A DNA stretch of 64,000 bases from Octopus vulgaris (taxonomy: Eukaryota). The position numbers and the translations under genes are program-made. A model generated the notes under the pieces. The model did no database searches and had not been told where the DNA came from. It worked only from the letters and a program-made list of their open reading frames with translations. Within the stretch, counting starts at the first letter, position 1; each line of letters starts with the position of its first letter. Positions 449 through 60,374 of this stretch are shown here, in pieces. The stretch spans positions 171,430,001 through 171,494,000 of the forward strand of contig OX597815.1 of assembly GCA_951406725.2 (NCBI GenBank). The letters are read 5' to 3'.

Positions 449-632
449 TTTATATCTCTGATAGGTCAGTGTGTGCAACCGCAGCAACGTCCCCCATGCA
501 GAAGCAGTACTACATAGAAACTGTCGTATAATGAGTTAGAAGTCGAGAAAAGAAAGCCATGTCTTATTATTCACGATGAAATACATAATACGTGATGAAA
601 TACATGATGAAGTACATTATAATTATACCTAC

Positions 633-747
633 TGCGACAGTTGTATAAGTTATTGATGTCTTGAGCATCGTAGTGGCTCAACGTTTTGTGGTAATCGATT
701 AAATAGAGCTGATCGGGATCAAGAACTTGATAAATATATTTATTTTC
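633..747 (-). CDS. Astacin exon 7, end of catalytic domain: ENKYIYQVLDPDQLYLIDYHKTLSHYDAQDINNLYNCR
   Basis: cattttcacag| acceptor (phase 0); LSxxDxxxINxLYxC astacin C-terminal motif; probable donor a|gtaggt at 633/632, so further exons likely lie outside the window. Confidence 0.9.
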
Positions 748-898
748 CTGTGAAAATGCCTGGTGAGAAAAGTATCAAGATATAATAAATAGATATTTTA
801 TATAAATATATATAATATATATATTGTATATACATTGTATGAGTATACATACACATACATACGCGCGGGCTCGTGTGGTAAGAATGATTTTATCTACC

Positions 899-1592
899 CA
901 CATACATTAAGTATGTGATACTGGTAATGTTTATATATATATATTGTAGGAATTGAACATACAAGTAGATGTACGACTATTGCTGTTATGTTTTGAGATC
1001 CTAATCTTTATATATAAAGCTGAAGTTGTCTGTGTGTGGCAGGATTGGTAGCCTTCAACTAACACTATCTCCTCCGAGACCCTGCGGCGCAAGTTGACCA
1101 AAATTGAGAGTATAATAGAAGAAGGCTTGCTCTTCATTCCGTAGAAGAAAAAATTCAAATCGGTTCATGTTAAGACCAAACATTATTTACATCAAAAAGG
1201 TGCTTTTTTTCTATGAAAATCCCTATAAGAAAACAAACCCGAGCAACGCCGGGCTATACTGCTAGTAGATTTCTATAATCCGGTTTCTGGATAGTTGTTA
1301 CTTCTGTACTGAGTAGTATTACCAGTTACGAGCTACAGAGTAAATACAGGAAAATAAGGATAAATCTAAGTATGTGTTAACTTAGATTTATCCTTATTTT
1401 CCTACATTTGGTCTGTAGCTCGTAACTGGTAATACTGCTCAGTATAGAAGTTAAGTAATAACTATCCAGAAAGCAAACCGGATTATGAAAATCTATTAGG
1501 AGCTCAAAACATAACAGCAATAGTCGCACATCTACTTGTACGTTCAATTTCTACATTAAATATAACATTACCAGTATCATATAATGCATGTG
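899..1592. repeat. Long palindrome/foldback element (arms ~210 bp, ~8-nt loop at 1372-1379), left arm interrupted by a Helitron
   Basis: 899-1004 plus 1266-1371 is the reverse complement of 1380-1592, with scattered mismatches. Confidence 0.9.
1005..1265 (+). mobile_element. Non-autonomous Helitron (family D)
   Basis: 5' TC, 3' hairpin cccgagcaacgccggg then CTAG, inserted between A and T with no TSD. Confidence 0.85.
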
Positions 1593-1931
1593 TGTTGCTA
1601 ATGGCTTTTAAACTGCGGTATTTCGTTCAGGAAAGGTCTCTTTAAAGACGTATTGTGTTAAAAAAAAGTAACACAGTATACTACAAACCTAGGCGAAACA
1701 TAATCGGCCCGGAAGTGTACAAAAAGGCATGTATCGATTTTTTTTGCGGATTTTCTATTCATCAGTATGGTATTCTCGCCTCACTTCCGAAACGAATCGA
1801 AATTGCTTTGCTAAACAAATACACAGATATCGTAAAATCTATCTGCTGCTGAGAAAAAGCTCCGCGCAATTAGAAGAAAATAAAAATTTTGTGTTAGAAT
1901 CGCTCAAAAATGACAGCATTATCAATATCAC

Positions 1932-1974
<43 letters not shown>

Positions 1975-1979
1975 TACAT

Positions 1980-2202
1980 TCTTTTACTCTTTTACTCTTT
2001 TACTCTTTTACTTGTTTCAGTCATTTGACTGCGGCCATGCTGGAGCACCGCCTTTAGTCGAGCAACTCGACCCCGGGACTTATTCTTTTTGTAAGCCCAG
2101 TACTTATTCTATCGGTCTCTTTTTGCCGAACCGCTAAGTGACGGGGACGTAAACACACCAGCATCGGTTGTCAAACAATGCTAGAGGGACAAACACACAC
2201 AC

Positions 2203-2268
<66 letters not shown>

Positions 2269-2427
2269 GACAGGCTTCTTTCAGTTTCCGTCTACCAAAT
2301 CCACTCACAAGGCATTGGTCGGCCCGGGGCTATAGCAGAAGACACTTGCCCAAGATGCCAGGCAGAGGGACTGAACCCAGAACCATGTGGTTGGTTAGCA
2401 AGCTACTTACCACACAGCCACTCCTGC

Positions 2428-2430
<3 letters not shown>
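1980..2430 (-). mobile_element. tRNA-derived SINE family B (CORE-like segment, internal microsatellite, (gagtaaaa)n tail)
   Basis: Head aggagtggctgtgtggtaag, B box ggttcagtccc, catcttgggcaagtgtctt; homologous copies at ~22365-22750 (+), 26965-27460 (+), 28815-29250, 29300-29733, 58017-58420 and 63070-63385. Confidence 0.88.
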
Positions 2431-2472
<42 letters not shown>

Positions 2473-2473
2473 T

Positions 2474-2537
<64 letters not shown>

Positions 2538-2951
2538 GTTAAACGTTTTTAGCAGTTGCATTTGAATTCAACAAAAATGTCTTGGAAGTAATCAAGAATT
2601 TTGGTTGTTTTACATTATTCCCTGCGAATTGTTGGAATTTAATACATTTATGGTTTAATTCTGGAAATAACAAACGCCTCACAAAGTTGTACTTGGTTTA
2701 TTTAGTACACTATAGCGTTAATTACATGTTCTAACAGGTAGTTTTCCCAAAAGTAGTTGGAACGGATTTCCAGCAGCTGTTTAAACTAAGACTTGTATAA
2801 TGAAGTACCTTTTCCAAAAGTGTAACGAAAAGCCTATTGCCAATAGTAACATAGACTTGGGCGTTGATAGATAAATACAGGATGCATCCGATCATTTCCT
2901 AGTTGCAAATGTATAAATATTTTAAATTACCATAAATAGAAACATTCTTAC

Positions 2952-3034
2952 CAATGGCCCATAAAGCATCACAGATTGGAAGTCGAAATCACTCTTATCA
3001 TGTGTATTTTCAGATAACATCCTGTTTCGAAATT
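2952..3034 (-). CDS. Astacin exon 6, Met-turn: (E)FRNRMLSENTHDKSDFDFQSVMLYGPL
   Basis: tttttcttttag| acceptor, ttg|gtaaga donor, phase 1 to 0; FDFQSVMLY corresponds to the YDYxSxMHY Met-turn. Confidence 0.93.
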
Positions 3035-3285
3035 CTAAAAGAAAAACAAGTATTATAAGGAAGGGTCGATAAATGAAATTATTAATCAATTACTACCTAT
3101 GTTAGCAATGGTTATTACAAGCAGCAATTAATGTTGTCCAGTCACAGACGAGGTCGAACAGTAGGTTAAACCTCTTGAGATATTCAGCTTTTCCCTCTAC
3201 GTTCTGAGTTCAAATATCTGATTATATCTACAGTTCGCAATATCCGCATACGTCTGATCGTCTCTTATCAAAAGTTTTATGTTTA

Positions 3286-3647
3286 TCTCTCTATATATAA
3301 AGCTGAAATTGTCTGTGTATGGCAGGTTTGGTAGCCTTCAACTAACACTGTCTCCTCCGAGACCCTGCGGCGCAAGTTGAGCAAAATTGAGAGTATGATA
3401 GAAGAAGGCTTGCTCTTCTTTCCGTAGAAGAAAAAATTCAAATCGGACCATTTTAACACAAAAAATAATTTACATCAAAAAGGTGCTTTTTTTTTACTGC
3501 TGTGTCACCATTTCTCGGTGTATTTCAACCAGAAAAATCTTCACTTAAAGAGAATAACTAGCTACATAATGCAAAAGTTTTACTTTTCAAAAATTCCAAT
3601 TCTAAAGGGTCGAAACAAACCTGAGCAACGCCGGGCGATATTGCTAG
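3286..3647 (+). mobile_element. Non-autonomous Helitron (family D)
   Basis: A|TC...gagcaacgccgggcgatattgCTAG|T; homologous to 1005-1265. Confidence 0.85.
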
Positions 3648-4234
3648 TTATTTAATAATGATACCAAAACAAATAGATTTATAAATCTCATGTCAAAACT
3701 TTTTTTTAAATTTTCAACATGTGCTTCGCCTGTATCCCTGCAATTTTCAAATCTATCTTTAGCGTTGCGATACACATTTTGAAGCATTTCATGAGTTATC
3801 TCCTGATCTCATAACTGAATGCGTTCCTTAATTTCAACTAAATTATTGCTCCATCCTGGGGATGAAGGTAGAGAAAATAATTGCAGCCAAATTGAAAAAA
3901 AATCCTGTCGTGGACAGATAAACAAGATCCAATAGGTATAAATATTACGTTCCCCTTACCACACGTCGTGGACGCTCTTTTTTCTCTCTCTCTTTCTGTT
4001 TCACCCTTCGCCTTATCCTCTTTTCCTCCTTTTTCTTTCTCCTCTCTCTCCTTTCAACTAATCACTTCAAGGCGTTACAATTACATTCTCTCTACCTCAC
4101 GTCATGGACGCTTCTCCCTCTCTTTTTCTCCATCCCTCTTTTCTTTCTTCCTCTTTTTCTCTAATCACGTGAAAGCGCTACCGACGGGCTAAGTAACGTA
4201 ATGACAAGCAGAATATTATAAGACTCTTACTTAC

Positions 4235-4340
4235 CACTTTGAATATTTCCGAACTTCACTCGAATATAATTATCTCTGTCTTTTCGCTTATGTTCGTGTG
4301 CAAGACCAAGAATATGACCGAGCTCGTGTAAACATGTTTC
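4235..4340 (-). CDS. Astacin exon 5, zinc-binding: [35 protein letters not shown]
   Basis: Full astacin signature HExxHxxGxxHExxRxDRDxY; tttttctcccag| acceptor, g|gtaagt donor, phase 0 to 1. Confidence 0.97.
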
Positions 4341-5673
4341 CTGGGAGAAAAAAAGAACAAGAATTTTTTGATGAAATCCCAACACAATATTAAGAATCAA
4401 GTCGATTCATTTTATTTATTTTTTTGTCGCCTACAAAGCTATATATGCAATATCTTTGTCTCTGTTTCCATTTGTCTTTACTTATTGTTCGGGTTAAAAC
4501 CTTATGGATATATTATTTAGTTCAGTAGAGCGAGAATATAGAATAGATATTTTTATCAAGAATGCTAATTTTTCGCTTCTAGAAAATCCAACATTTTCAT
4601 TCAAAAATCATTAAATTATAGCATCTGACTATTTGTTTGTTCACAAACTTCACAGTGCACTGTGTATGTGTAGCACTTCTATGGCGTTAAGCGAATCGAA
4701 ATCACATCTTCTGCTGGATAAAGCGCCAGTCTATTACAAATAAACTTCCCTATGAGAAGAAGTAAACTAAGCACTGAAAACAGAGACAACCCGTCTTTCC
4801 TAGTACTTCAGCCCTCTGTAATTCTCTTCCCACCAGTTTTATTTTCTTTTTTTTTTCTTTATCCTGTTTTTGTCCTGTAACCATCAATTTCTAGTACTCA
4901 AGGTAAACATTAATCACATCAGTTTCAACTAGACTGGGAAAGTATTCAGAATCCCTTCCATCCAACTAAAACTCCAATAATATTTAAAGTATGTAAGCAG
5001 CTGCTTACATTGGTGTAGTAAATATTGCTAGTTATCTACTTAGAACTTGGTAAGTTTGTCCGTTGGGAATTACAGCCTTGGACATGAACAACAGAAAGTA
5101 AATATAAGTATTTTCTTGAATCAGCTCTGTCTAGGAAACTTCAAAATATACAGTTGATGGACTATATTTTATTATTATATTAGGTGCCAGATGTCTTTAT
5201 TCTTTATCACACCCTAACTTAGAGAATATAGATTTCAAAACTATTCTTATTCTATTTGCGCGAGTAAATATCACAGTATATTTAGTTTACCAAACATCTC
5301 GTCAGTTATGTTTTTTTTCTAATCCAACTGCCATACAAAATATGTTAGAAATGTCTTCCTTGGGGCAAGGAAGACATTTCTATAAATGTCTTATAAGACC
5401 TATAAATGTTTTATAAGATTTATAAATGTCCTATAAGCTTTACAAGTCTTCATAAACTGTCATGAGGATATATGAATACACGAGTCTTCAGTCCTCTTAT
5501 AAAAGCAGCAATTTCAACATTTTATTCTTAGCAAGTTGTTTTAGCAGCCCCTCCAAGTCACACATCAATCTATTTCTAAAATACTATGGATTACATTCTT
5601 TTCTCTTAGAAGTTTCTAATTATTACAATAAAACCTTAAAATCCCAAAATTAAAAGAATTTATTGATACTTAC

Positions 5674-5737
5674 CGCACTACAACAGCGAGCTGATCTTTG
5701 ACTATTGAAAAAGCCGATCTGTGCAAAGCAGTTTTTA
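5674..5737 (-). CDS. Astacin exon 4: (S)KNCFAQIGFFNSQRSARCCSA
   Basis: cttttacttcaaag| acceptor, gcg|gtaagt donor, phase 2 to 0; CFAQIG corresponds to the astacin C-x-S-x-V-G segment. Confidence 0.88.
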
Positions 5738-6009
5738 CTTTGAAGTAAAAGAATGAATTCGTCAATTTAAGGGTTAATAAGAATCCATTTTTTGATATGA
5801 GGAAATATAAAGGTATGTTATCCAGATATTTGTTTGTTAACCCCTGTTACCTGAGACAGCTAAGCAGGTGACCAAACCCATCTCCTTGAATACGTTTTAT
5901 TACACCTTACACAAACATATCCCATAACCAATAATCCCCCATATGGTTTACAGCAGTCCGGCAAAAAACACTGTCTGCAATATCCAGAAAAACACATTAA
6001 TTAATTAGT

Positions 6010-6102
6010 ATTTAACTACTATTGTAATTTATGTTAAATGGCATTTAACTACTAATGTAATTTATGTTAAATGGCATTTAACTACTACTGTAATTTATGT
6101 TA
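6010..6102. repeat. ~32-bp tandem repeat, about 3 units
   Basis: tttaactacta.tgtaatttatgttaaatggca repeated. Confidence 0.9.
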
Positions 6103-6539
6103 GACTGTCATCTGTACGGCAAATTATGCATTCCTGCACCGCACAACCTGCACGTGTTCTTCATTCCAGCTGCAGTAGATTCTTCTGGTTTACTCAAAAT
6201 ATATTACCGGCCACTCCAGTAATCACGCGGAGAAAGCTTCAAGTTTTGCTGTCTGATATGCATCCAAATTCACATTTGGACGCACACGGTTAAATGCCAC
6301 TAAAACTTGACTTCTCCGTTCCACCAGTTTCACGACCACGCTATGTATCAAAAGATCTTTAGTCATTCCAAAACAAGAAAGCCACAAGCCCTGACAATGT
6401 ACTTCCATAAACGTCAAAGAATGCACCTTAGAACTTGCTTTTTCTCGACAAATAGCTCTCCTCCCTCTCTCTCTCTCACTCAGCCCCACCCTGTCTCTCT
6501 CTGTACACTATCTCTCACACATCATAACACACCGGACAC

Positions 6540-6900
6540 ATGTTGTCTAAATCACTGTCCAATCACAACAATACAACCGGCGGACAGCGTCCGGTTGTGT
6601 TTTGAATTTCGCATGGTGTACCAACTGACGTGTTTTTGCAGGGAGACATACTTAGATTCAGCCAGAAGACAATTTCACCTCAGAGTGAAGGACCATTTCC
6701 ACAAGGCCACATCACCCAGTGCCGTGTTCCAACACCACCAACAATATGACGGGGATTTCTCCACCCGTATACTGGCAACGGGGATGGACGCAGTCAACTT
6801 CAGAATCACTAAGGAACACTTCATTAGGAAGAAGACACCCAGCCTTAACCGCCAGAACAAGTCGGATGGATGGAAATAAATCCTCTGCTTCCAGAATCTT
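6540..6900 (+). mobile_element. Penelope-like element, GIY-YIG endonuclease remnant
   Basis: VYQLTCFCRETYLDSARRQFHLRVKDH...SAVFQH...RILA...FIRKKTPSLN. Confidence 0.75.
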
Positions 6901-8111
6901 TAACCAGCACCAGCAATAACCACCATCAAATAATAAAAAGAAAGAACGTCAGATGAAAATTCCTTTATCTGTAAGCGCTTACGCGATAAAATTTCACACC
7001 CAGCAACAGGTCTCACACCACACGTAGTTAGACATTCTATAGCACCCACCCGTCATGCATATAACTCATTCCTTCGTCACCCGTTCGGTTTCTCCTCCTA
7101 TTATAACACTGCTTTGTCAGGGCTTCGTCTTTCAAGATTCTTTTGCCGCCTACGTTTATCCTAGTGTCATATTGTAGCTGTTGAAGCTAAACATCAACTG
7201 CAATAATCTTAGGTGAACTAAAATGTTATAGAAACTGACACTTTCTGTCATTCTAATCATAAAAACCTATTCTAAATTTGTTACTTTAAAATTTTCCCAT
7301 TTTTTATTCTGGTTTCATACGTATCAGACCCAAACAGATTTTCAATGCTACGGAAATGCTCAGTAAGTGACTTAACTAAAGCTATTAAAAAAAGCTGTCA
7401 AATGAACAAGCATTGCAAAACTGAAATGTGTTATGGTTGTGTCGAGTTTATGAATAGGTTTCGATCGATTATAGGTTGTACAGAATTTCCTTTCCTGGGT
7501 TGTAAAGAGGTGCATTGTGATGCAAATATACGCTTCTGCCAGCAAATCATTTTTGACTTACCAAAGGATCCAGTGGATCATTTTCTGTATTTTGTTTTAT
7601 TGCTAACCGAAGTAGTTCAATTCGTTGCGAAAGAAGCAATATAATGGTGTCGATAACTATGTATATATGACTCGTTACATACGTTTCTTAAGTAAAGGCA
7701 CGAAATTGATGGGTATGAAGCAAATCAAAGTGATGAGGCAATTAAAAATTGACACATCACTCAGGAAAGTCTTCATTAACCACTTATATTTTAGCACAGT
7801 ACACATTGTTTAAAATATGTATGTTCTATATTATATGTTATGTTTTATAGAATTAATTCTGTATCAGATTTAAACTTGATTAGATGCAATGCTCTTTGTT
7901 AAAAATTTTATAAGAAGGTTTCGCAAATATTAAAAGTGGATATGCCTTTCAATTATTTTGTGGCCTTTTCGGATTATGAGACTCTAAGTTATAGCTTATT
8001 TAGCTTATGCCTAAACCAATCGTAGGCTGCATAGGTATATGTCGTGTTATAGATAATATTCCAGGTGAAATGCTTTCAAATGTCATAACAGAAGAGAAAA
8101 TGTTCATTTAC

Positions 8112-8259
8112 CTTCCTCCTTTAAACAAAACTGATCCTTGGTGTTTCATTTTGGCCTTTATTGCTTTGCCATCTGATGTATTCATGTTAACAAAACGAAT
8201 ACAAGATAAATACGTGTACTGGTGCGAGGCATATTGGACAGCTGCTTTTTCCCTTTTAG
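8112..8259 (-). CDS. Astacin exon 3: (T)KREKAAVQYASHQYTYLSCIRFVNMNTSDGKAIKAKMKHQGSVLFKGG
   Basis: ttttctcttaaag| acceptor, ag|gtaaat donor, phase 1 to 2; SCIRFV astacin motif. Confidence 0.9.
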
Positions 8260-9168
8260 CTTTAAGAGAAAATTAAATATTACAGATAGTATATATACAG
8301 TAATTTTAAATGTGAGCACAAACGGTAAAACACATAGGTACAAACACATACATTCACATACACATATATTTATGTGTGTATGCATGTGTGTCTTAACGAA
8401 ACTGACGCAGCCTTCAGAAGATCCCTTACTCGATCGGTGGATCTGGAAAAAAAACTATCAAGTAAATCTACTTCAAATATACCCTGTAGTATTAAAAACA
8501 ACATACATACATACATATTTATTGGGTGAAAATGATATCCGAGGAAATTGATAATAGTATAAGGCGGCGACAATTAGCCCAATGCAGAATTCATCGAATA
8601 TCTGGATAAGTATAATTGTCTTAAGGGTGAAGAAACTAATGTTTCAGATATCATTTCATCGCCTCAGACTGAACACGATAGAAATAATCACCCCCAACCA
8701 GATTGACCGAGCACTATAGTATTTAGTTTTCACTTAATGTATATTTTGTATTTTATTTATATATATATATAAATTCGTTTAAATATTTTAATTAATTGTA
8801 TCTTATTTTTTATTCTTTTCTTTTTATTTAAACAAGAATATATTTAAGATATTTCGTATTTTACAAGATTATTTACGTATATATATTAATTTATCTAATT
8901 AATTATTTATTGTTTTTTTTCTTTAACTTGAAGAGTGGTTATATATATATTGAAGTGATTTTACTAATATTATTATTATTACTATTATCATTTCTAAAAT
9001 ATATCCACGAAACACGTATCGTTATTCTACCAAATATATACGTTTTATTTACTTTTTTGCACATTATTTAATCATTGTTATATGTTTTATCTTTCTGTAA
9101 TATGTAATTTTTCTAAATGGTATAATTTGATTTTTCATTATTGAATTGATAAAAGGTGTTTTTTTCTA

Positions 9169-9217
<49 letters not shown>

Positions 9218-9297
9218 TTTGTGAAATTTGATTTAGTATTTCTAAATTGAATTTTTCCCTGTAAGTTTGGAATAATACTCCCTCATATTATTATTAT

Positions 9298-9369
<72 letters not shown>

Positions 9370-9681
9370 TATACACATACATATATATATATATGCATAT
9401 GTACATACATATGTATATACATATATACACATATATACATACATATATATACATATTTATACATATATATATAAGAATATAATGCATAAAATTGTTTCAG
9501 GTTACTTCCATTATTTACCGAGAATAAGACACAATAGTATTAATCATCAAAAAATACTATTTGTGATATTCTTTTCATCGTTCCTTTGACTCTACTTTAA
9601 TTTTTTAGTGTTTCATAAAGTATACTTTCCCCCACTTCACTATAATCATATGAGTCAAATATAATGGAAATGTTTACTCAC

Positions 9682-9763
9682 TCATTTCAGGACTGAATTG
9701 GTAGAGTATCGTATTATTTGGCCATAGTTTGTTTACTTCTCTCTTATGTAATTTTCTTGCCTT
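9682..9763 (-). CDS. Astacin exon 2: KARKLHKREVNKLWPNNTILYQFSPEM (basic processing site and start of the mature domain)
   Basis: ctttgtttag| acceptor, a|gtgagt donor, phase 0 to 1; LWPNNTILY matches the astacin N-terminal W-x4-[IP]-Y region. Confidence 0.85.
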
Positions 9764-9891
9764 CTAAACAAAGTAGGTATTTTCAGCTTTATAACAATGC
9801 AGCAGAGAATAAGGTGATATCAAAATAAAAATGCAAAATGTAATACAAATGAGTGCACACGCATCCACACAATTACTCATACACACAAATA

Positions 9892-11161
9892 CAGGGATTG
9901 GACAAAATGATGGAAGCACCTTAAAATTTTAAACAAATTTGTTTTAATATGGGATAGGACCGCCTTTGCAGTAATTACAGCTTAAATTCTACGAGCTATG
10001 GACTCGTGCAAAGTTTGAATTGCTTCCAAAGGAATTTTTGTCCATTCTTCAACTAAAATACTCTCCAGCTCTTGTAGTGATGATGGCGAAGGGTATCGAC
10101 TCCTTACTTGTTTTTCTAAAATGCACCATAAATATTCAATAATATAGAGATCTTTGGATTATGGTGGCCAGATAAGATTTTCAACTTCACTAGAATGTTC
10201 TCTTGCCATTGAGTAACAACTTCAGCTGTGTGAGTTGGTGCGTTATTGTCCTGAAAGATTGCATTTTCCCCCGGAAACAGTTCTGCAACCGTAGGATGAA
10301 TTTGATTAGATAAAATGCTTAAATAGTCTTGAATATTAATTCTGCCATGAAGGGAAACCATTGGGCCGGCGGATTTCCAAGATATAGACTCCAGATCATT
10401 ACAGATCCTCCTCTATGTTTAACAATTGGAAGAAGGCAGTCTGGGTCAAATGCTTCTTTTGGCTGTCTCCACACGTATACTCGGCCGGTGGTCGGAAATA
10501 AGGTAAATAAGGACTCGTTCGAGGAAGTAACATTCTTACCCTGCTCTGGGGGACCAATTCTGCAGGTTTTTACTCCACTCTAAATGCATTGCAACATTTG
10601 TTTTTGAAATTAGTGGTCTTCTGATTGCAGCCCTCCCGTGAAATCCGAATTTCTGCAGCTCCCAGCGAACAGTTTTTGTGGAAACCAGGTTCTCGAGGTT
10701 GTCATAAAGGTCTGTAGTAATTTTGAGAGCTATACTTTCGTGATCCTTTCTAACAATTCGCATAAGGATCCGATGGTCCCTTTCTAAAAGTTTTGGTTTC
10801 TTCCGGAGTTTTGTTTTGACAAGGAGGTTTTTCCCTCTTTCTCAGAGGCCGTCATTACGTTCAAGACAGTACTTCTTGATACACCAAACATTTCGGCTGT
10901 TTTCGTTACGCTAGCGCCAGTCATAAGAGCACCAACAATTTGACCTCTTTGAAAGTCCAATCGATCTGTCATTTTAATGAATTTTAATTACCTTTTTCTG
11001 ATGATGTCTGAAAAGAAACAGCAATTTTAGCAAAACATATTAAGCAACACTAATAATAAATCAAAAAACATAAAAGGAAGCAAGCTTTTGACGGTTTTAT
11101 AAATATTTCAAAATTATGATACTATGATGCTAGGTGTTTCCATTATTTTGTCCAACCCCTG
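9892..11161 (-). mobile_element. Full-length decayed Tc1-like transposon in an astacin intron
   Basis: TA flanks; TIRs cagggattggacaaaatgatggaagcacc / ggtgtttccattattttgtccaacccctg; fragmented transposase ORFs (DFQRGQIVGA, VSTKTVR, IFQDNNAPTH) at 10116-10972. Confidence 0.93.
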
Positions 11162-11403
11162 TATATACATGCACATGCATTTATTGATATATGCATACAT
11201 ACAAAGAAAAGTACTTATATATATGATGTACCACTCTCACACACACGCACACACGCACACACATACACACATACTCTCTCTCTCTCTCTCTCTCTCTCGC
11301 TAGCTCTCTCTCTCTCTCGCTAGCTCTCTCTCTCTCTCTCTCGCTAGCTCTCTCTCTCTCTCGCTAGCTCTATCTCTCGCTAGCTCTCTCTCTCTCTCTC
11401 GCT

Positions 11404-11474
<71 letters not shown>

Positions 11475-11654
11475 ACACGTGCGCACAAATATGCGTGCTT
11501 ACACATGCACAAACATATATCTGTCGAAAGATCTAAACTCAAAATTTTGAAATATTTTAGTCAAAAATAATTTAGAAGTCTATCTTAAGACAGTTATGTT
11601 AGTGCGTGAGTGTGTATGTGTATATGTGTGCATGCATTTATGCATGTATGTATG

Positions 11655-12040
11655 TTATCATTTAGTTTTATTTAAAATTTTCTTGCCAATACTGGAATTT
11701 TATACAACATCGGCAAGTTATTTGTGTATTTTTGCTGCACGTCTAGATACGTGCATATATACTTAATTAGTAAACTTCTGGAAAGTTTTATAAATTTTTA
11801 CAGTTCCAGTGATGGCTTGCCTTGTAGTTTTCGAATCAGTTTTCTCCTTTCTGGCTTTCAGAAGCCTAATTTCTCAAGATTGAGTCTCAAGTAGTTTGTT
11901 AGATATCCCAGTGCCCCAATAATTACAGGTATAAATCTAAACTTGTAATGCGAGCAGAGTAACTGCAAATGCCTCAGTAGTTCAGCGTAGCGGTTTTCTT
12001 TTTCGCTGATCTTGAGCTTTACGTTAACATGGGCCGGGCT
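11655..12040 (-). mobile_element. RLE-type LINE 3' fragment
   Basis: Translates as PAHVNVKLKISEKENRYAELLRHLQLL...YKFRFIPVIIGALGY; homologous to 60490-61197. Confidence 0.7.
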
Positions 12041-12080
12041 ACGTATATATGTATGTATGTATGTGTGTATGTATGTATTT

Positions 12081-12297
12081 GGCGGGGTGCTGAAAAGCTC
12101 TGGACTTTAAATGTATCGCGAAAGGCCTGACTGGAGGCTCAACCTTCCGAGTTCTTTTAAAGAGCTTAGAAAAACTAAACGAATGCTGTAATAAGCGTGT
12201 GAATTTGAGAGGGAAATATGTTGAATAAAGTCATAATTAACTGATGTATCTGTATTTTCTTTTACCCAAAGCCAAGAACTTTTCAGCCACCCTTTGT
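12081..12297. mobile_element. Short mariner-type MITE
   Basis: Inverted ends ggggtgctgaaaagctctggacttt / aaagccaagaacttttcagccaccc, similar to the termini of the 35 kb mariner. Confidence 0.6.
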
Positions 12298-12534
12298 ATG
12301 TATGTATGCATGCATGTAGGTATGTATGTATGTATGTATGTATGTATGTATGTATGTATGTATGTATGTATGTATGTATGTATGTATGTATGCATGTATT
12401 TATGTATGTATTTATGTATGCATGCATACATGTATGTAACTATATTTTTTTAAATTGTTCTTTATGAAGAGTAAAAAATAGCTTGCTTCATTTATCACTT
12501 TTCTCTCATTGAAAATTGTATATCTACTACTTAC

Positions 12535-12600
12535 CTGTTTGTTTGACGTAACCATGTCTATTAAACTCAGTGAAACCAGGAACCAGTAGATCAATTCCAT
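12535..12600 (-). CDS. Astacin-family metalloprotease, coding exon 1 (signal peptide MELIYWFLVSLSLIDMVTSNKQ); exon probably starts at the acceptor at 12620
   Basis: Pyrimidine-rich acceptor ttctatttccaag| at 12621/12620, in-frame TGA upstream of the ATG, hydrophobic 19-aa leader, donor cag|gtaagt (phase 0) matching the next exon. Confidence 0.75.
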
Positions 12601-12699
12601 TTCTTGCGAAAATAATCACTCTTGGAAATAGAATAAAAAATCCCCGATTAAATTTATTGTCTTCATACAGATGTTGATAATACAGAAACAATCTCAAAG

Positions 12700-45944: not shown

Positions 45945-47151
45945 TTAAGTATGAACATTAGAACCAACATCTGCTGGTTCTTTATTCTTCACTTCATTCT
46001 TTTCCTTATAAGCCTTCCACAGATAATGTAATAAGTCTCCGGCAACTAAATCTGTAGAATTCTTTGCTATAACACGTAGGACCAAAAAACCATCGTCTCG
46101 AAGATACTCCTTCGTAAATTTTTGACATAGTTTTCTGTCCTGTTTTGTCTGGATGGAATCCCACCATCGAATGTATTTAGTGACATAATCAATATGAGCC
46201 TGGGAGAAAATGAAGCGATAGAACCAGGACAAAAGATTAATGCATGAACATGCAGCGACAAACACAAACCAAAACCACAAAAAGATGAATATTTTTTCGT
46301 TAAATAAATTGATTGGTAAAACACATTGAACGGTGTATCTTTGAAGATTTTGTAATTGACGAATTTGCAAGTCACACAGTGTTACTCTAGGGAAACGTGG
46401 ACTTTCTTGCCAAACAGTATTACTGGCTAAAGAATTTAACACTTCCAGTCCGTAAACAGTATAATCGGTTGCCATAAAAGCATTCAGAAGGAAAAATTGG
46501 CCAATTACATTAGCCACGTAGAGCATTTTCACAAAAACATAGAGGCCAGTAAGAAAAGTACCCTGGCGACGGGAACACAGAAAGCAACACATCCTCGATG
46601 ATCTTTGTCGTAGTTTAACAAGGAAATTGAGTTTATATTCACGATAAGCTTCAAGCCAGCGTGTGAGAAAATGAGCTATGTTTTTAATGGTTTCCTCACG
46701 ATCATCTGGGGAACCTAACTGAGTCTCTTCAGCCATTGACACAATTTTATCAAGGTTTAATCCTGATAATTCGTGCGTTGATGTCCAAAGTATATTTGGA
46801 AATTTAAACATGAATGCTTGAAACAGTAATATTAGTGGCACCCACTGGTAGTAAGTTATTTGTTTGTCCTCTCGCTTGCGAATTTCAACTGGTATAACGT
46901 CTGTCATCGGTATGTAGTAAGTGTTGGCAATCCAACAGTAGGATTTGGTGTAGTCGACAAAGGCATCTGTGAACTCGGCCGGGCACCAACATTGAATAGC
47001 ATCTCCGACATACTGACCTGTGCTAATTATGACCGCAAAGATGACCAATAACACGACAGTATAAAGATGGTTAAGGCGATCAACCCAGTCGTCATTTATG
47101 CTACCTCGTACTCGAGAGTAACTGCCAAAGTTTTCAATCAGTGAGCTGATC
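45945..47151 (-). CDS. inx: Innexin (invertebrate gap junction protein), main coding exon of 401 aa plus one base; the first codon(s) come from an upstream exon
   Basis: DDWVDRLN, IQCWCP, SYCW, YYQWVP signature, FPRVTLCD, QCVLPINLFNEKIFIFLWFW, four hydrophobic segments. The ORF track's first 20 aa are intron: branch-like ctaat, polypyrimidine tract, tattag| acceptor at 47152. Confidence 0.97.
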
Positions 47152-47509
47152 CTAATACGAAAAGAAAAACAAAAGAAATACATTAGAGACCTGAAGATAA
47201 AACACTGCAATTAATGTATAATAATATATTACATTTGATAAAATATGTGTGTGTGTGTCCGTATATGTCTGTGTGTGTATGGGAGTTGCACATCAACCAT
47301 TTCCATTTCTATACCTACCTTTACTTCACATCCTTTGAATATCGCTAATATCCATTTGAATACCTGTGTAATCCATTACATGAATTTAACAATTAATTAA
47401 CATGCTTTAAACAGTTCCCTGCAACTGAGTATTTGACATTTTAATGTTAACACATAGTAAATCAAAACTTGATAAGACTTGATATTTTCGATTAGTGAAC
47501 ACTCGCACT

Positions 47510-49179: not shown

Positions 49180-50340
49180 CAAAAGTGTAACCTTTCAAAT
49201 TAATGTAAAGTTGTTTTTATTATTACTTAACATAAAAGCAAACATTACTATATAGTCTTTTGGCAGATTAGTAGTATTTATCAAGATAAATTTGGGGAAA
49301 AAACTCATTGATAACTTTAAGACAATTAGGCCTCAAAATCATTGTTATTACCGATCTGTCAAAAATCGATTTGTTAAATATTTCCCTAGATCTAAACTCC
49401 CAATCTTATAACCCGTACCATAAGCCAAACAAAAAACTCTCCTACATGCACAGTCCTGTCACCTTCCCCCCACCACCATAGTGTTTAAAATCCTGATAGA
49501 TAACGTTACCAGTAGGATATCAAGCCTCTCTTCTAAAAACTGTTTTTGATACGGTAGCCCTCTACTATAACAATAACCAAGCTAACAGTGGCTTTCAAGA
49601 TAAGATATATTACAACCCTTCTAGTAAAAATATCAATGATAAATACTGACCTAAAATTAGACCTAGGAAAATAATTTGGTAAATCCCACTATTTCTCCTT
49701 AAATGTTACAACTAACGTATGAAAAAAGTTTCTGTCTCTTTTAAATAAGTATTTCCTAGAACATCACATGTACATACTCACAGTAAAATTTTACAGCTAC
49801 TCCCGTAATATGAAAAACATCATCACCCGTCAACATCAAGAGTCCACTCTCAGTTGTAACTGTCAAGACCCCGGAACTTGCTCACTTGACCAGACGTGAT
49901 AAATTCCGTTGTATAAGGAACAGAGGTAATAGCAACGCTTCATGATTAAATAACTGAAAAAAGAATTACATGGGATTACGCGGAGGTGACTTCAAAAGAC
50001 GTTATGCAAACCACTTATCTTCTTTCCGGCATATCAACTAAAGTAAATACACTAAGTTGGCTAGCCATGGGCGGTGCTTGAAGATCAACTCTACGTCACA
50101 TACAATCAAGTGGAAAATCGTAGAAAAATCCATGCTATATATCAATGGATCTAAGAGGTGCAACTTAAGCGTAGCCGAACGATTGCATATCCTCTTTTTA
50201 GATCTAAGAATTCCACCGCACTGCTGATTCCAGATCAGAAATTTCAGCAAATGCAAATATATGGACAAATTTCTCTTGACGAATTGGACGACAACATTCT
50301 CTCCGGATTGGGCAGCTGTATCGCAGATTTTAGACTCTTC
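49180..50340 (+). mobile_element. Degraded Penelope-like RT/GIY-YIG region; a duplicate piece lies at ~48550-48750
   Basis: Broken frames with FLDLN, YNPYHKPN, RKIIW, FKRRYANHLSSFRH and IKWKIVEKS; related to 56420-56980. Confidence 0.7.
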
Positions 50341-50379
50341 TCCATTGAATCATTCTACAACTACACACACACGCACACT

Positions 50380-50429
<50 letters not shown>

Positions 50430-50432
<3 letters not shown>

Positions 50433-50815
50433 CAACAACTACCCCAAAAGTATACTATCCATTCCAATTATGAAGAAGAGAGAGAATGAGGCCAATAAAC
50501 TGTCCACAATCTGTCTACCCTATGTGAAAGGCCTCTCCGAAAAGATACAAAAGATATGCGGCCCATATGACATCGAGACAGTATTCATGAGTAATACAAC
50601 ACTTCGCAAATATCTCCTTCGAGTAAAACCACCAATAAAAGAGAATATGACCAAAGACTGCGTGTACTCCATCCCATGCAGCGAATCATGCAGCCCACTC
50701 AAAATAATGGTAGACGAACATCCCAAAGCTGTGACACGAGGAGATATTGATAAATCGGGTATAGCTGACCATGTATGGAAAAATGGAGACCACCTCCCCC
50801 TGTGGAACCGGTATT
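50430..50815 (+). mobile_element. Penelope-like fragment (RT thumb/linker to GIY-YIG)
   Basis: ICLPYVKGLSEKIQKIC...VYSIPCS...KSGIADHVW. Confidence 0.8.
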
Positions 50816-50939
50816 AAGAAAGGATAGAAAAATATTAGATTTATAAGCCCTAAAATTCACTCCATAATCGCACATATGGCGTAGTTGTTAAGAGCGCGGG
50901 CTACTAACCTCAAGATTCCGCAGTGACAACAACAACAAC

Positions 50940-56399: not shown

Positions 56400-56990
56400 G
56401 AGATAACAAAGCCAAGGTTTTGAGGAGTTTTCAGGATAGACATTTTTCAGTCAACCATAGATACAGAAAGCTCTTCAATAGACATAACTTAAAAATCAGT
56501 TTCAGCTCAGATACTAATTTAAAAAATATAATCGCACACAACACACAAAAACCACAAAATGAAACCAGCTGTTCATGCAGGGAAAAAAGTTTGTGCCCGC
56601 TAAATGGAGTTTGCATGTTCGAGACCATCATTTATGAAGCCACCGTAGATTCTACAACCACTAAGGACACAGTTTCGACAAAGAAATATGTGGGCCTTAC
56701 AGAGGGGTATTTCAAGGTCAGGTTCAACAATCACATCTTGAGCTTCAGGCACTGGGATAAAAAGGAAACGATCAAATTATCCAGTTATATATGGTTCTTA
56801 AAAGATAAAGGTGTCAGTTACAATCTCCATTGGAAGATCTTAGCCAAGTGTAAGCCTTACACCAACGGCAGTGGAAAGTGCGGTCTTTGTGATATTGAAA
56901 GATAGCTACATGTCTAAATTCAAGAACTGAACTTTTTGGAATATGTCCATATGTAGCTAAATATTTGTTACGCTTTTGGTCTCCCCAAGA
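56400..56990 (+). mobile_element. Penelope-like (Neptune-type) Cys-linker plus GIY-YIG fragment
   Basis: CSCREKSLCPLNGVC, IIYEATV, KYVGLTEGYFKVRFNNH, WKILAKCKPY...KCGLC. Confidence 0.85.
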
Positions 56991-59089: not shown

Positions 59090-60374
59090 TTGGGCCGTCC
59101 GGAAAGTTCGTGCCGATTTATAGTAGTTTACCTTTCGACTTATTTTAGAACATGGTTGAGTCCATAAAATAGGATTTGACTACATCTCCATTTAGAGCAC
59201 AGTTTAAGCTATCTTTTCGTGGAAGAAGGTTTATGTTCCTATAACCTGTGTCAATTCTGTAACCCTTTAAAATGGAAGATAAGAAAGTTCATTTTCGACA
59301 CTTGATGCTTTTCTTTTTCCGTAAAGCGGAAAATGCCTCACAAGCAACCAAAGAAATATGCGCAGTTTACGGTGATGTTTCTTTATCCGAAAGAATTGTA
59401 CGGAAGTGGTTCGCAAGGTTCCGAGCTGGAGATTGTAGCCTTATTGATAAAGAGCGATCAGGCAGACCATCCTTTACAGATGATGGCCAAATCAAGTCAT
59501 TAACTGAGAATAGCCCACATTGCACAACTCGAGAATTGGCAGAAAGCCTCAACCTATCAAAATCCGTCGTTCATGAGCACCTGGTAAAGTTTGGGTGCAC
59601 AAATCGCTACGATGTTTGGGTACCACATGAGTTGAGTGAGAAGAACCTTTTGGATGGCATTTCCATCTGTGATTCGCTTTATAAACGGAATGAAAACGCG
59701 CCTTTTTTTAAACAAATTGTGACAGGTGATGAGAAATGGATTATCTACCAAAATGTTCAGAGAAGGCGATCCTGGAGTAGGCGACATGAGACACCCTTAG
59801 CCACCCCAAAAGGGGGTCTTCACCCTAAAAAAAGTCTTGCTTTGTGTCTGGTGGGATTGGAAAGGAATTTTGTACTATGAGCTGCTACCAAGTAACCAGA
59901 CAATTAATTCTGAGAAATACTGGACACCACTGGACGAATTAAAAGCAGCAATTCAAGAGAAACGACCAGAATTGGCCAACAGGAAGGGTGTTGTTTTCCA
60001 ACATGATAATGCAAGACCGCACGTTTCTTTGAGAACCAGACAAAAATTGCTGCAGCTCGTCTGGGATGTGTTATCCCACCCCCCATATTCACTAGATATT
60101 GCTCCTTCGGATTTCCACTTATTCAGGTCTCTGCAGAATAGTCTTAATGGTAAAAATTTCAATTCCTTGGATGACATAAAAAGATACCTTGATGAATTCT
60201 TTGCCATGAAACCACCTCAATTCTGGGAAGAGGGTATTTTCAAGTTAAAAGAAAATTGGGGAGGCATTGTGTAACAAAATGGTTCGTATTTGGTTGATTA
60301 AAAATGTAATGGCAAGTATTTATTGACCATTTTCTTTCCTTTAAAAATCGGCACGAACTTTCCGGACAACCCAA
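59090..60374 (+). mobile_element. Full-length mariner (DD34D, mellifera-subfamily-like); transposase 59272-~60301 with one frameshift and one late stop
   Basis: TA flanks; ~30-bp TIRs ttgggccgtccggaaagttcgtgccgattt / aaatcggcacgaactttccggacaacccaa; WVPHEL, TGDEKW, HDNARPH, YSLDIAPSD, with 34 residues between the second and third Asp. Confidence 0.97.

What the first reader, a model, noticed from the sequence alone, without database searches (positions are those of the whole stretch)
633..12620. Hidden seven-exon secreted astacin metalloprotease missed by the ORF track
Seen in sequence: seven minus-strand coding exons of 64-148 nt with AG/GT borders and consistent phases (0,1,2,0,1,0,1). They splice to 221 aa: [221 protein letters not shown]. 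Established: HExxHxxGxxHE plus an SxMxY Met-turn defines M12A astacins, and all zinc ligands and the catalytic Glu are intact. Inference: a divergent secreted protease; if the host is a cephalopod, candidates include a salivary/venom, digestive or hatching enzyme.
Basis: partly seen in the sequence, partly recalled or inferred. Interest (0 to 1): 0.75.

Follow-up and report, generated by a model that had tools for sequence, protein, structure and literature searches.

The report
Octopus multi-domain astacin without latency switch
These seven exons are the first quarter of an already annotated octopus gene for a predicted secreted, multi-domain zinc protease related to a limpet mucus protein; it lacks the usual built-in off-switch motif and likely acts on mucus or microbes at body surfaces.

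Summary
The seven exons are real, but they are neither hidden nor a whole gene. They are exons 1-7 of a 23-exon, 949-aa open gene that runs 62.6 kb past the window's left edge. It is 948/949 identical to Octopus sinensis XP_036368646, and its first 663 residues equal O. vulgaris CAI9718521. Exon 7 most likely starts at 759, not 747. Architecture: astacin, EGF-like, ApeC, CUB, kringle, ShK-like, sushi, C-type lectin, ShK-like. Collinear relatives at about 30% identity occur in gastropods, bivalves and a nemertean. One is limpet pedal-mucus protein P-vulgata_14, whose authors proposed, without a test, an antibacterial role. All zinc ligands, the catalytic Glu and the astacin fold are present. 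The less ordinary point: this subfamily lacks the FxGDI aspartate-switch motif (0 of 36 relatives), carries a dibasic processing site (35 of 36) and has an extra cysteine pair. The octopus pro-segment is the shortest of 37, about 11 residues with no Asp, Glu or Cys. It is likely a convertase-activated surface or mucus protease. Expression site and activity are untested; nothing found supports venom. Modest interest.

The parts
12535..12620 (-). Exon 1: 20 nt of 5' UTR behind a likely acceptor at 12620, ATG at 12600, predicted signal peptide (about aa 1-19) and aa 20-22
   Evidence: Residues 1-19 are the most hydrophobic 19-residue window of the protein. The cleavage point is inferred; no signal-peptide predictor was run.
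9682..9763 (-). Exon 2 (aa 23-50): rest of the short basic pro-segment ending in KR30, and start of the catalytic domain (W36). NAGNAG acceptor at 9763/9760.
   Evidence: O. bimaculoides isoforms X2 and X4 lack K23, matching the second AG.
8112..8259 (-). Exon 3 (aa 50-99): backing helix, C69
   Evidence: 92% identical to O. bimaculoides P0001.
5674..5737 (-). Exon 4 (aa 99-120): C102, C117 and C118
4235..4340 (-). Exon 5 (aa 121-156): C123, zinc motif [12 protein letters not shown] at 4328-4293, family Glu136, RKDRD
2952..3034 (-). Exon 6 (aa 156-183): Met-turn and Tyr ligand, SVMLY at 2975-2961
633..759 (-). Exon 7 (aa 184-226, corrected acceptor): C-terminal helix, C224, phase-1 donor to exon 8. 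Exons 8-23 lie at G000:C2:171428608-171367359, left of the window, and encode EGF-like, ApeC, CUB, kringle, ShK-like, sushi, C-type lectin and ShK-like modules.

Best explanation
The stretch is exons 1-7 of an intact 23-exon Octopus gene for a 949-aa multi-domain astacin (M12A) that is predicted to be secreted and likely works as a target-binding protease in mucus or on an epithelial surface. Shown: gene structure, open frame, all zinc and catalytic residues, domain order, absence of the FxGDI motif, and a dibasic site before the catalytic domain. Predicted: the astacin fold and a compact arrangement of the domains. Inferred steps: (1) the signal peptide is removed near residue 19; (2) a proprotein convertase cuts the short basic pro-segment, at KR30 or at RK26, in the secretory path, so the enzyme would leave the cell already active, with no aspartate blocking the zinc; (3) ApeC, CUB, kringle, sushi and C-type lectin modules would tether it to microbial walls or polyanionic mucus glycoproteins; (4) the zinc/Glu126 site would cut the bound or neighbouring proteins.
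For: 23 GT-AG exons give 949 aa without a stop, 948/949 identical to O. sinensis. Against O. bimaculoides no Cys changes over residues 1-940, and 12 of 195 catalytic-domain residues differ. Pfam on P0004: Astacin 7e-31, ApeC 5e-25, CUB 2e-18, Lectin_C 6e-14, Kringle 9e-12. AlphaFold2 model: pLDDT 89.9, pTM 0.88, residues 1-29 disordered. Match to crayfish astacin 1ast: Z 21.3, rmsd 2.0 A over 186 residues. Both published primers of limpet P-vulgata_14 map, correctly oriented, onto P0015 (XP_050388454), which aligns with the octopus protein at 31% over 914 columns, E 2e-127. P-vulgata_14 was found in bulk pedal mucus and has nearly the same domain list (PMC7333891, passages). ApeC domains of oyster and snail short-form proteins bind peptidoglycan, one of them with all three DXED motifs altered (PMC9585378, passages). 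A dibasic site lies 7-11 residues before the conserved Trp in 35 of 36 relatives. A switch-like motif is in the pro-segment of 0 of 36 relatives against 4 of 4 other astacins held.
Against: The limpet protein's antibacterial role is a proposal; its in situ probe was not among the five that gave a pattern. Orthology to P-vulgata_14 is not resolved: the quick tree puts the octopus protein on a long branch beside a Lottia protein, flagged as a possibly false join, and Patella has at least three paralogues. None of 12 predicted tryptic peptides, nor the accession, is in the held part of an O. vulgaris skin-mucus peptide table that does list other astacins (PMC10138644; file cut at 3,654 rows). The octopus binding modules are degenerate: the ApeC lacks the LPDG loop seen in most relatives and has no DxED, and the lectin reads QPN/WKN. 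KR30 has Leu at P4, so it is not a textbook furin site (28 of 34 relatives have R or K there). A cut there leaves 5 residues before W36, where relatives have 7-11.
Confidence: 0.5

Rival explanations
1. The same gene and protein, but used in reproduction or development, for example to remodel egg coats, egg-attachment or spermatophore matrices, or in hatching.
For: The protein is the most basic of its family: +7.1 net charges per 100 residues against a median of -2.8 in 51 other relatives. That would suit binding to acidic egg or jelly glycans (inference). Fish hatching enzymes are among the best structural matches (Z 21.3 and 21.1). ApeC proteins have been linked to embryogenesis (PMC9585378, passages).
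Against: The hatching-enzyme matches tie with meprin, BMP1 and crayfish astacin, so they say nothing about function. Other octopus astacin exons are also basic (+2.25 per 100 against +2.56 for this catalytic domain; 3 of the 23 control rows were read on the wrong strand), so part of the charge may be a genome-wide trend.
Confidence: 0.22
2. The protein is a weakly active or inactive adhesive or matrix scaffold: processing at KR30 would leave an N-terminus too short to anchor on Glu136.
For: Model residue 29 aligns with mature astacin residue 3, so Glu31 would be position 5. [quoted passage not shown]
Against: All zinc ligands, Glu126, Glu136, RKDRD, Met178 and Tyr180 are kept in three Octopus species. 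A cut after RK26 would give the canonical register (Leu27 as position 1).
Confidence: 0.12
3. It is a salivary (venom-spreading) or digestive protease.
For: Astacins occur in the venoms and digestive fluids of other animals (established knowledge, recalled). Two ShK-like modules are present (for the second, below cut-off; cysteine pattern for the first).
Against: The same architecture is found in limpets, abalone, oyster, scallop and freshwater mussels. The limpet authors judged their ShKT module non-toxic. No paper search tied this gene to venom.
Confidence: 0.11
4. The locus mainly makes a short, stand-alone astacin of about 220-245 aa that ends in or just after exon 7.
For: Exon 7 reads through to a TGA at 573.
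Against: There is no AATAAA or ATTAAA between that stop and position 1. Sixteen intact downstream exons follow in frame and in order. 7 of 7 full-length database models continue past exon 7.
Confidence: 0.04

Closest known systems
P-vulgata_14, limpet pedal-mucus protein (Kang et al. 2020, PMC7333891; matched here by its primers to XP_050388454.1)
   Same: M12A, ApeC, CUB, kringle, sushi, C-type lectin and ShKT modules; collinear at 31% over 914 columns; no switch motif near the catalytic domain; RRKR site before it.
   Different: The limpet record has a 743-residue acidic precursor region and pI 4.1. The octopus protein has 30 residues before the cut and pI 9.4. One-to-one orthology is not shown.
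Canonical animal astacins (crayfish astacin 1AST/3LQ0, Limulus LAST_MAM 8A28, meprins, BMP1/tolloid, fish hatching enzymes)
   Same: Catalytic fold (Z about 21, rmsd about 2 A), HExxHxxGxxHE, RxDRD, SxMxY, and cysteines for both standard disulfides.
   Different: No FxGDI pro-peptide; pro-segment about 11 aa against the 34-486 given in PMC9848320; an extra Cys pair (C118, C123); different accessory domains.
ApeC-containing proteins (amphioxus ACP1-5, oyster CgACP1, snail BgACP1)
   Same: One ApeC domain with eight cysteines.
   Different: Fused behind a protease; no DxED motif; lacks the LPDG loop present in most relatives.
Myroilysin (bacterial astacin with a cysteine switch)
   Same: An astacin without the FxGDI motif.
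   Different: The octopus pro-segment has no Cys either, so neither described switch is available.

Membership tests
Astacin family M12A | HExxHxxGxxH followed by the family Glu and xxRxDRD | tested here: met
   [19 protein letters not shown], aa 125-143
Astacin family M12A | Met-turn with Tyr two residues later (SxMxY) | tested here: met
   SVMLY, aa 176-180
Astacin family M12A | About 200-residue domain over the Pfam PF01400 cut-off with the astacin fold | tested here: met
   107.7 bits against 22.5; predicted model to 1ast Z 21.3, rmsd 2.0, 186 aligned
Astacin family M12A | Signal peptide for secretion | tested here: inconclusive
   Hydrophobic residues 1-19 and no other stronger 19-residue window; no dedicated predictor available
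Astacin family M12A | Mature N-terminus buried and bound to the family Glu | tested here: inconclusive
   Depends on the cut site: Leu27 fits the astacin register, Glu31 is four residues short
Astacin family M12A | Zinc-dependent endopeptidase activity | not testable with these tools
   Needs a bench assay
Aspartate-switch astacin zymogens (the structurally described animal type) | Pro-peptide of 34 or more residues carrying FxGDI | tested here: not met
   Residues 21-30 hold no Asp, Glu or Cys; no [FYLIM]xGD in any sense frame of intron 1; database models of three species join exon 1 to exon 2 directly. Not filed under this type.
   C118 in 29 of 34 and C123 in 27 of 34 relatives; KR30; dibasic site in 35 of 36 relatives
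   0 of 12 peptides in a cut skin-mucus table
ApeC-containing proteins | ApeC domain with eight cysteines over the Pfam cut-off | tested here: met
   88.9 bits against 26.5; 8 Cys
ApeC-containing proteins | Peptidoglycan or microbe binding | not testable with these tools
   DxED motifs are absent, but BgACP1 binds peptidoglycan with all three altered

The most novel reading that the evidence does not exclude
A lophotrochozoan astacin subfamily has dropped the aspartate-switch latency shared by all structurally described animal astacins. It relies on convertase cleavage and perhaps on its own tightly packed accessory domains (pTM 0.88) to control the active site. The octopus member has gone furthest: its pro-peptide is vestigial and its binding modules have shifted from acidic calcium/sugar sites to a polycationic surface, making it an essentially constitutive, charge-targeted surface protease.
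Probability: 0.35. Interest if true: 0.55.

Novelty: new variant of a known kind. Interest (0 to 1): 0.3.

Why it matters
As a gene discovery it matters little: the gene is annotated and its domain list was published for a limpet protein. The residual value is mechanistic. A 2023 review (PMC9848320, section 2.1 read) states that animal astacin pro-peptides span 34-486 residues and share FXGDI. This subfamily does not, and the octopus member has almost no pro-peptide, so it offers a direct test of how an astacin stays safe, or does not, without a zinc-blocking residue. It also holds the only ApeC matches found in this genome (2 exon matches, a lower bound), and a nemertean member extends the architecture beyond molluscs.

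Tried and rejected
Expression: no RNA holder was listed for window 600-9800. Seven probable RNA runs were laid (4 on 2600-8500; 3 on 4225-8305), of 21 listed. They gave repeat cover only, or none, and no exon junction. This is no evidence either way, so the six junctions are not confirmed by reads here. dN/dS: no coding DNA of a relative was available; a DNA run of another organism covered only exon 5. Hidden pro-peptide exon in intron 1: no [FYLIM]xGD in the three sense frames; a divergent motif-less exon is not excluded. Conserved Asp or Cys elsewhere in the family's pro-segments: at most 10 of 36 share an Asp column and 3 of 36 a Cys column. Tree: only the quick method finished and the octopus branch is long, so no orthology claim is made. 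Squid, cuttlefish or nautilus members: none among named hits; the searches are word-limited and most representatives were not named, so this is not absence. ApeC fold: not tested, since other domains filled the structure lists. Earlier findings of the scan: none by place or by words. Literature: no paper names six accessions of this gene or two relatives; none holds astacin+octopus+apextrin, 'ApeC domain'+astacin or astacin+'aspartate switch'+mollusc. These searches are leaky: one search missed the limpet paper, which writes M12A, and most subscription papers are not held. The figure and supplement of PMC9585378 that list complex mollusc ApeC architectures were not seen and may already include this family.
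Full report
1. Observation. All seven exons exist at the stated place, with AG/GT borders and phases 0,1,2,0,1,0,1. Spliced in a script they give 221 codons without a stop, with [12 protein letters not shown] at 125-136 and SVMLY at 176-180. The zinc motif occurs once in the window's six frames and in 0 of 100 shuffles. Exon 5 alone passes the Pfam Astacin cut-off and exon 3 gives a weak Astacin hit; the other five exons give no family.

2. It is an annotated gene and much longer. Exon 3 retrieved O. bimaculoides LOC128250767 at 92% identity. Its cluster holds O. sinensis XP_036368646.1 (949 aa) and O. vulgaris CAI9718521.1 (788 aa, named 'mucus 14'). All 7 full-length records carry AFSQ after YGP[L/M], which the window encodes if exon 7 starts at 759. 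Mapping the O. sinensis protein onto the window and 80 kb to its left gave 23 exons, all GT-AG, and 2,850 nt without an internal stop, 948 of 949 residues identical; the last exon ends 62.6 kb left of the window. CAI9718521 equals this model for 663 residues, then skips the first ShK-like and sushi exons and part of the lectin, and ends differently. It is an isoform or a faulty model. O. bimaculoides isoforms differ by one Lys at the exon 1-2 junction, matching a NAGNAG acceptor in the window; I infer that this junction had transcript support in that annotation.

3. Anatomy. Hydrophobic residues 1-19; basic segment 20-30; astacin 31-225; EGF-like 226-268 (six Cys, Pfam only E 0.32 in P0007); ApeC 276-456; CUB 472-572; kringle 587-659; ShK-like 663-705 (cysteine pattern only, no Pfam hit); sushi 714-762 (below cut-off in P0004, above in P0001); C-type lectin 787-891; ShK-like 899-936 (below cut-off). 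AlphaFold2 on a 71-row alignment gave pLDDT 89.9 and pTM 0.88, with only 1-29, 704-706 and 942-949 under 50. The catalytic domain matches crayfish astacin, hatching enzymes, BMP1 and meprins equally (Z about 21, rmsd about 2 A). An ApeC scan of the genome found 2 matches, both exons of this gene (a lower bound). The Astacin scan found 24 exon matches, 1 of them here.

4. Family. A search of 1.84 billion representatives listed its best 150. Of 158 proteins then held, 73 had ApeC or astacin plus kringle. Of 20 looked up, 17 were named: 13 gastropod, 3 bivalve, 1 nemertean. The nemertean protein has the full Pfam set. Kang et al. 2020 (PMC7333891; passages, section 3.4 and supplement hits seen) report P-vulgata_14 from bulk pedal mucus with M12A, ApeC, CUB, kringle, two sushi, C-type lectin and ShKT domains, and propose an antibacterial role that they did not verify. 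Both of its primers map onto P0015 (XP_050388454.1), which aligns with the octopus protein at 31% over 914 columns. This likely explains the name 'mucus 14' (inference). A quick tree did not resolve orthology.

5. What differs from textbook astacins. PMC9848320 (abstract, passages and section 2.1 read) gives animal pro-peptides as 34-486 residues sharing FXGDI; PMC9629494 (passages) describes the aspartate switch. For the counts I kept non-octopus relatives with ApeC detected, an intact zinc motif and sequence before the domain: 34, and 36 after adding two Patella proteins. I dropped fragments, three proteins without the zinc motif, and those where my ApeC probe failed. Some kept gene models may have wrong N-termini. 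FxGD[IL] was in 0 of 34. A looser motif within 70 residues before the conserved Trp was in 2 of 36, both behind the processing site and so 0 of 36 in the pro-segment, against 4 of 4 other astacins held (a small control; two of them look bacterial). Three of 34 have a loose motif further upstream. A dibasic site lies 7-11 residues before the Trp in 35 of 36. An extra Cys pair precedes the zinc motif (C118 in 29 of 34, C123 in 27 of 34), a likely third disulfide. The octopus precursor has 30 residues before KR, the shortest of 37 (next 33, 40 and 47; median 117), with no Asp, Glu or Cys in 21-30, and only 5 residues between KR and Trp. Short pro-segments are therefore not unique to octopus. Its ApeC lacks a loop of about 20 residues with LPDG that most relatives keep; a DxED-like motif occurs in only 2 of the 31 ApeC regions aligned, neither octopus. 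Its net charge is the highest of 53 (+7.1 per 100 residues), though other octopus astacin exons are basic too.

6. Mechanism. Most likely (0.5) it is a secreted protease, activated by a convertase, that is held on microbes or mucus glycoproteins by its accessory modules and cuts proteins there. The gene and its catalytic residues are shown, the fold is predicted, and secretion, processing, binding, activity and tissue are inferred. ApeC binding to peptidoglycan is shown only for short-form proteins of other animals (PMC9585378 and PMC8361754, passages). Against the mucus reading: 0 of 12 predicted peptides were in the held, cut part of an O. vulgaris skin-mucus table that lists other astacins (PMC10138644, passages and supplement searches). 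Rivals: a reproductive or developmental role (0.22), a weak or inactive scaffold (0.12), a salivary or digestive enzyme (0.11), a short stand-alone form (0.04).

7. Verdict. A real, intact, already annotated gene of a mollusc-wide architecture that has been described once from limpet mucus. The subfamily-wide lack of the latency motif was not found in print, which cover open papers only. It makes this a variant of a known kind with modest interest (0.3).

Noticed in passing
window 45945-47210 (-): A single 421-codon open frame covers the whole Pfam Innexin model (E 9e-98): an innexin gene with an uninterrupted coding region.
   Followed up: partly
window 10116-10841 (-), intron 1: Broken Tc1-like transposase remnants; one piece hits HTH_Tnp_Tc3_2 (E 5e-11).
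   Followed up: partly
window 59263-60274 (+): Mariner-like transposase in two overlapping frames (HTH_48 and Transposase_1 hits).
   Followed up: partly
window 50155-50817 (+), 56402-56905 (+), 6304-6879 (+): Open frames that resemble Penelope-like retroelement pieces (recalled resemblance); no Pfam hit at E 0.01.
   Followed up: partly
window about 3280-3650 (intron 5) and about 1000-1240 (intron 6): A high-copy repeat heavily covered by contigs of four probable RNA runs; a second partial copy is visible by eye in intron 6.
   Followed up: partly
window about 1270-1480: A long inverted repeat of about 100-nt arms, MITE-like, seen by eye.
   Followed up: no
window about 16170-16860 and 17290-17710: Two near-identical blocks of trinucleotide repeats with shared flanks: a local duplication or an assembly repeat.
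   Followed up: no
G000:C2:171400395-171386993 (L028-L029 and L027): Exons 17-19 are intact in the genome but wholly or partly missing from the O. vulgaris record CAI9718521.
   Followed up: yes
P0056 (XP_074650471, Tubulanus polymorphus): A nemertean protein has the same astacin-ApeC-CUB-kringle-lectin-ShK-sushi set, whereas PMC9585378 reports no orthologues of mollusc ApeC groups in other phyla.
   Followed up: partly
L001-L024 against window exons 2-7: This gene splits the catalytic domain over six exons, while several other octopus astacins match the profile in pieces of about 70-80 residues, suggesting a separate intron history.
   Followed up: no
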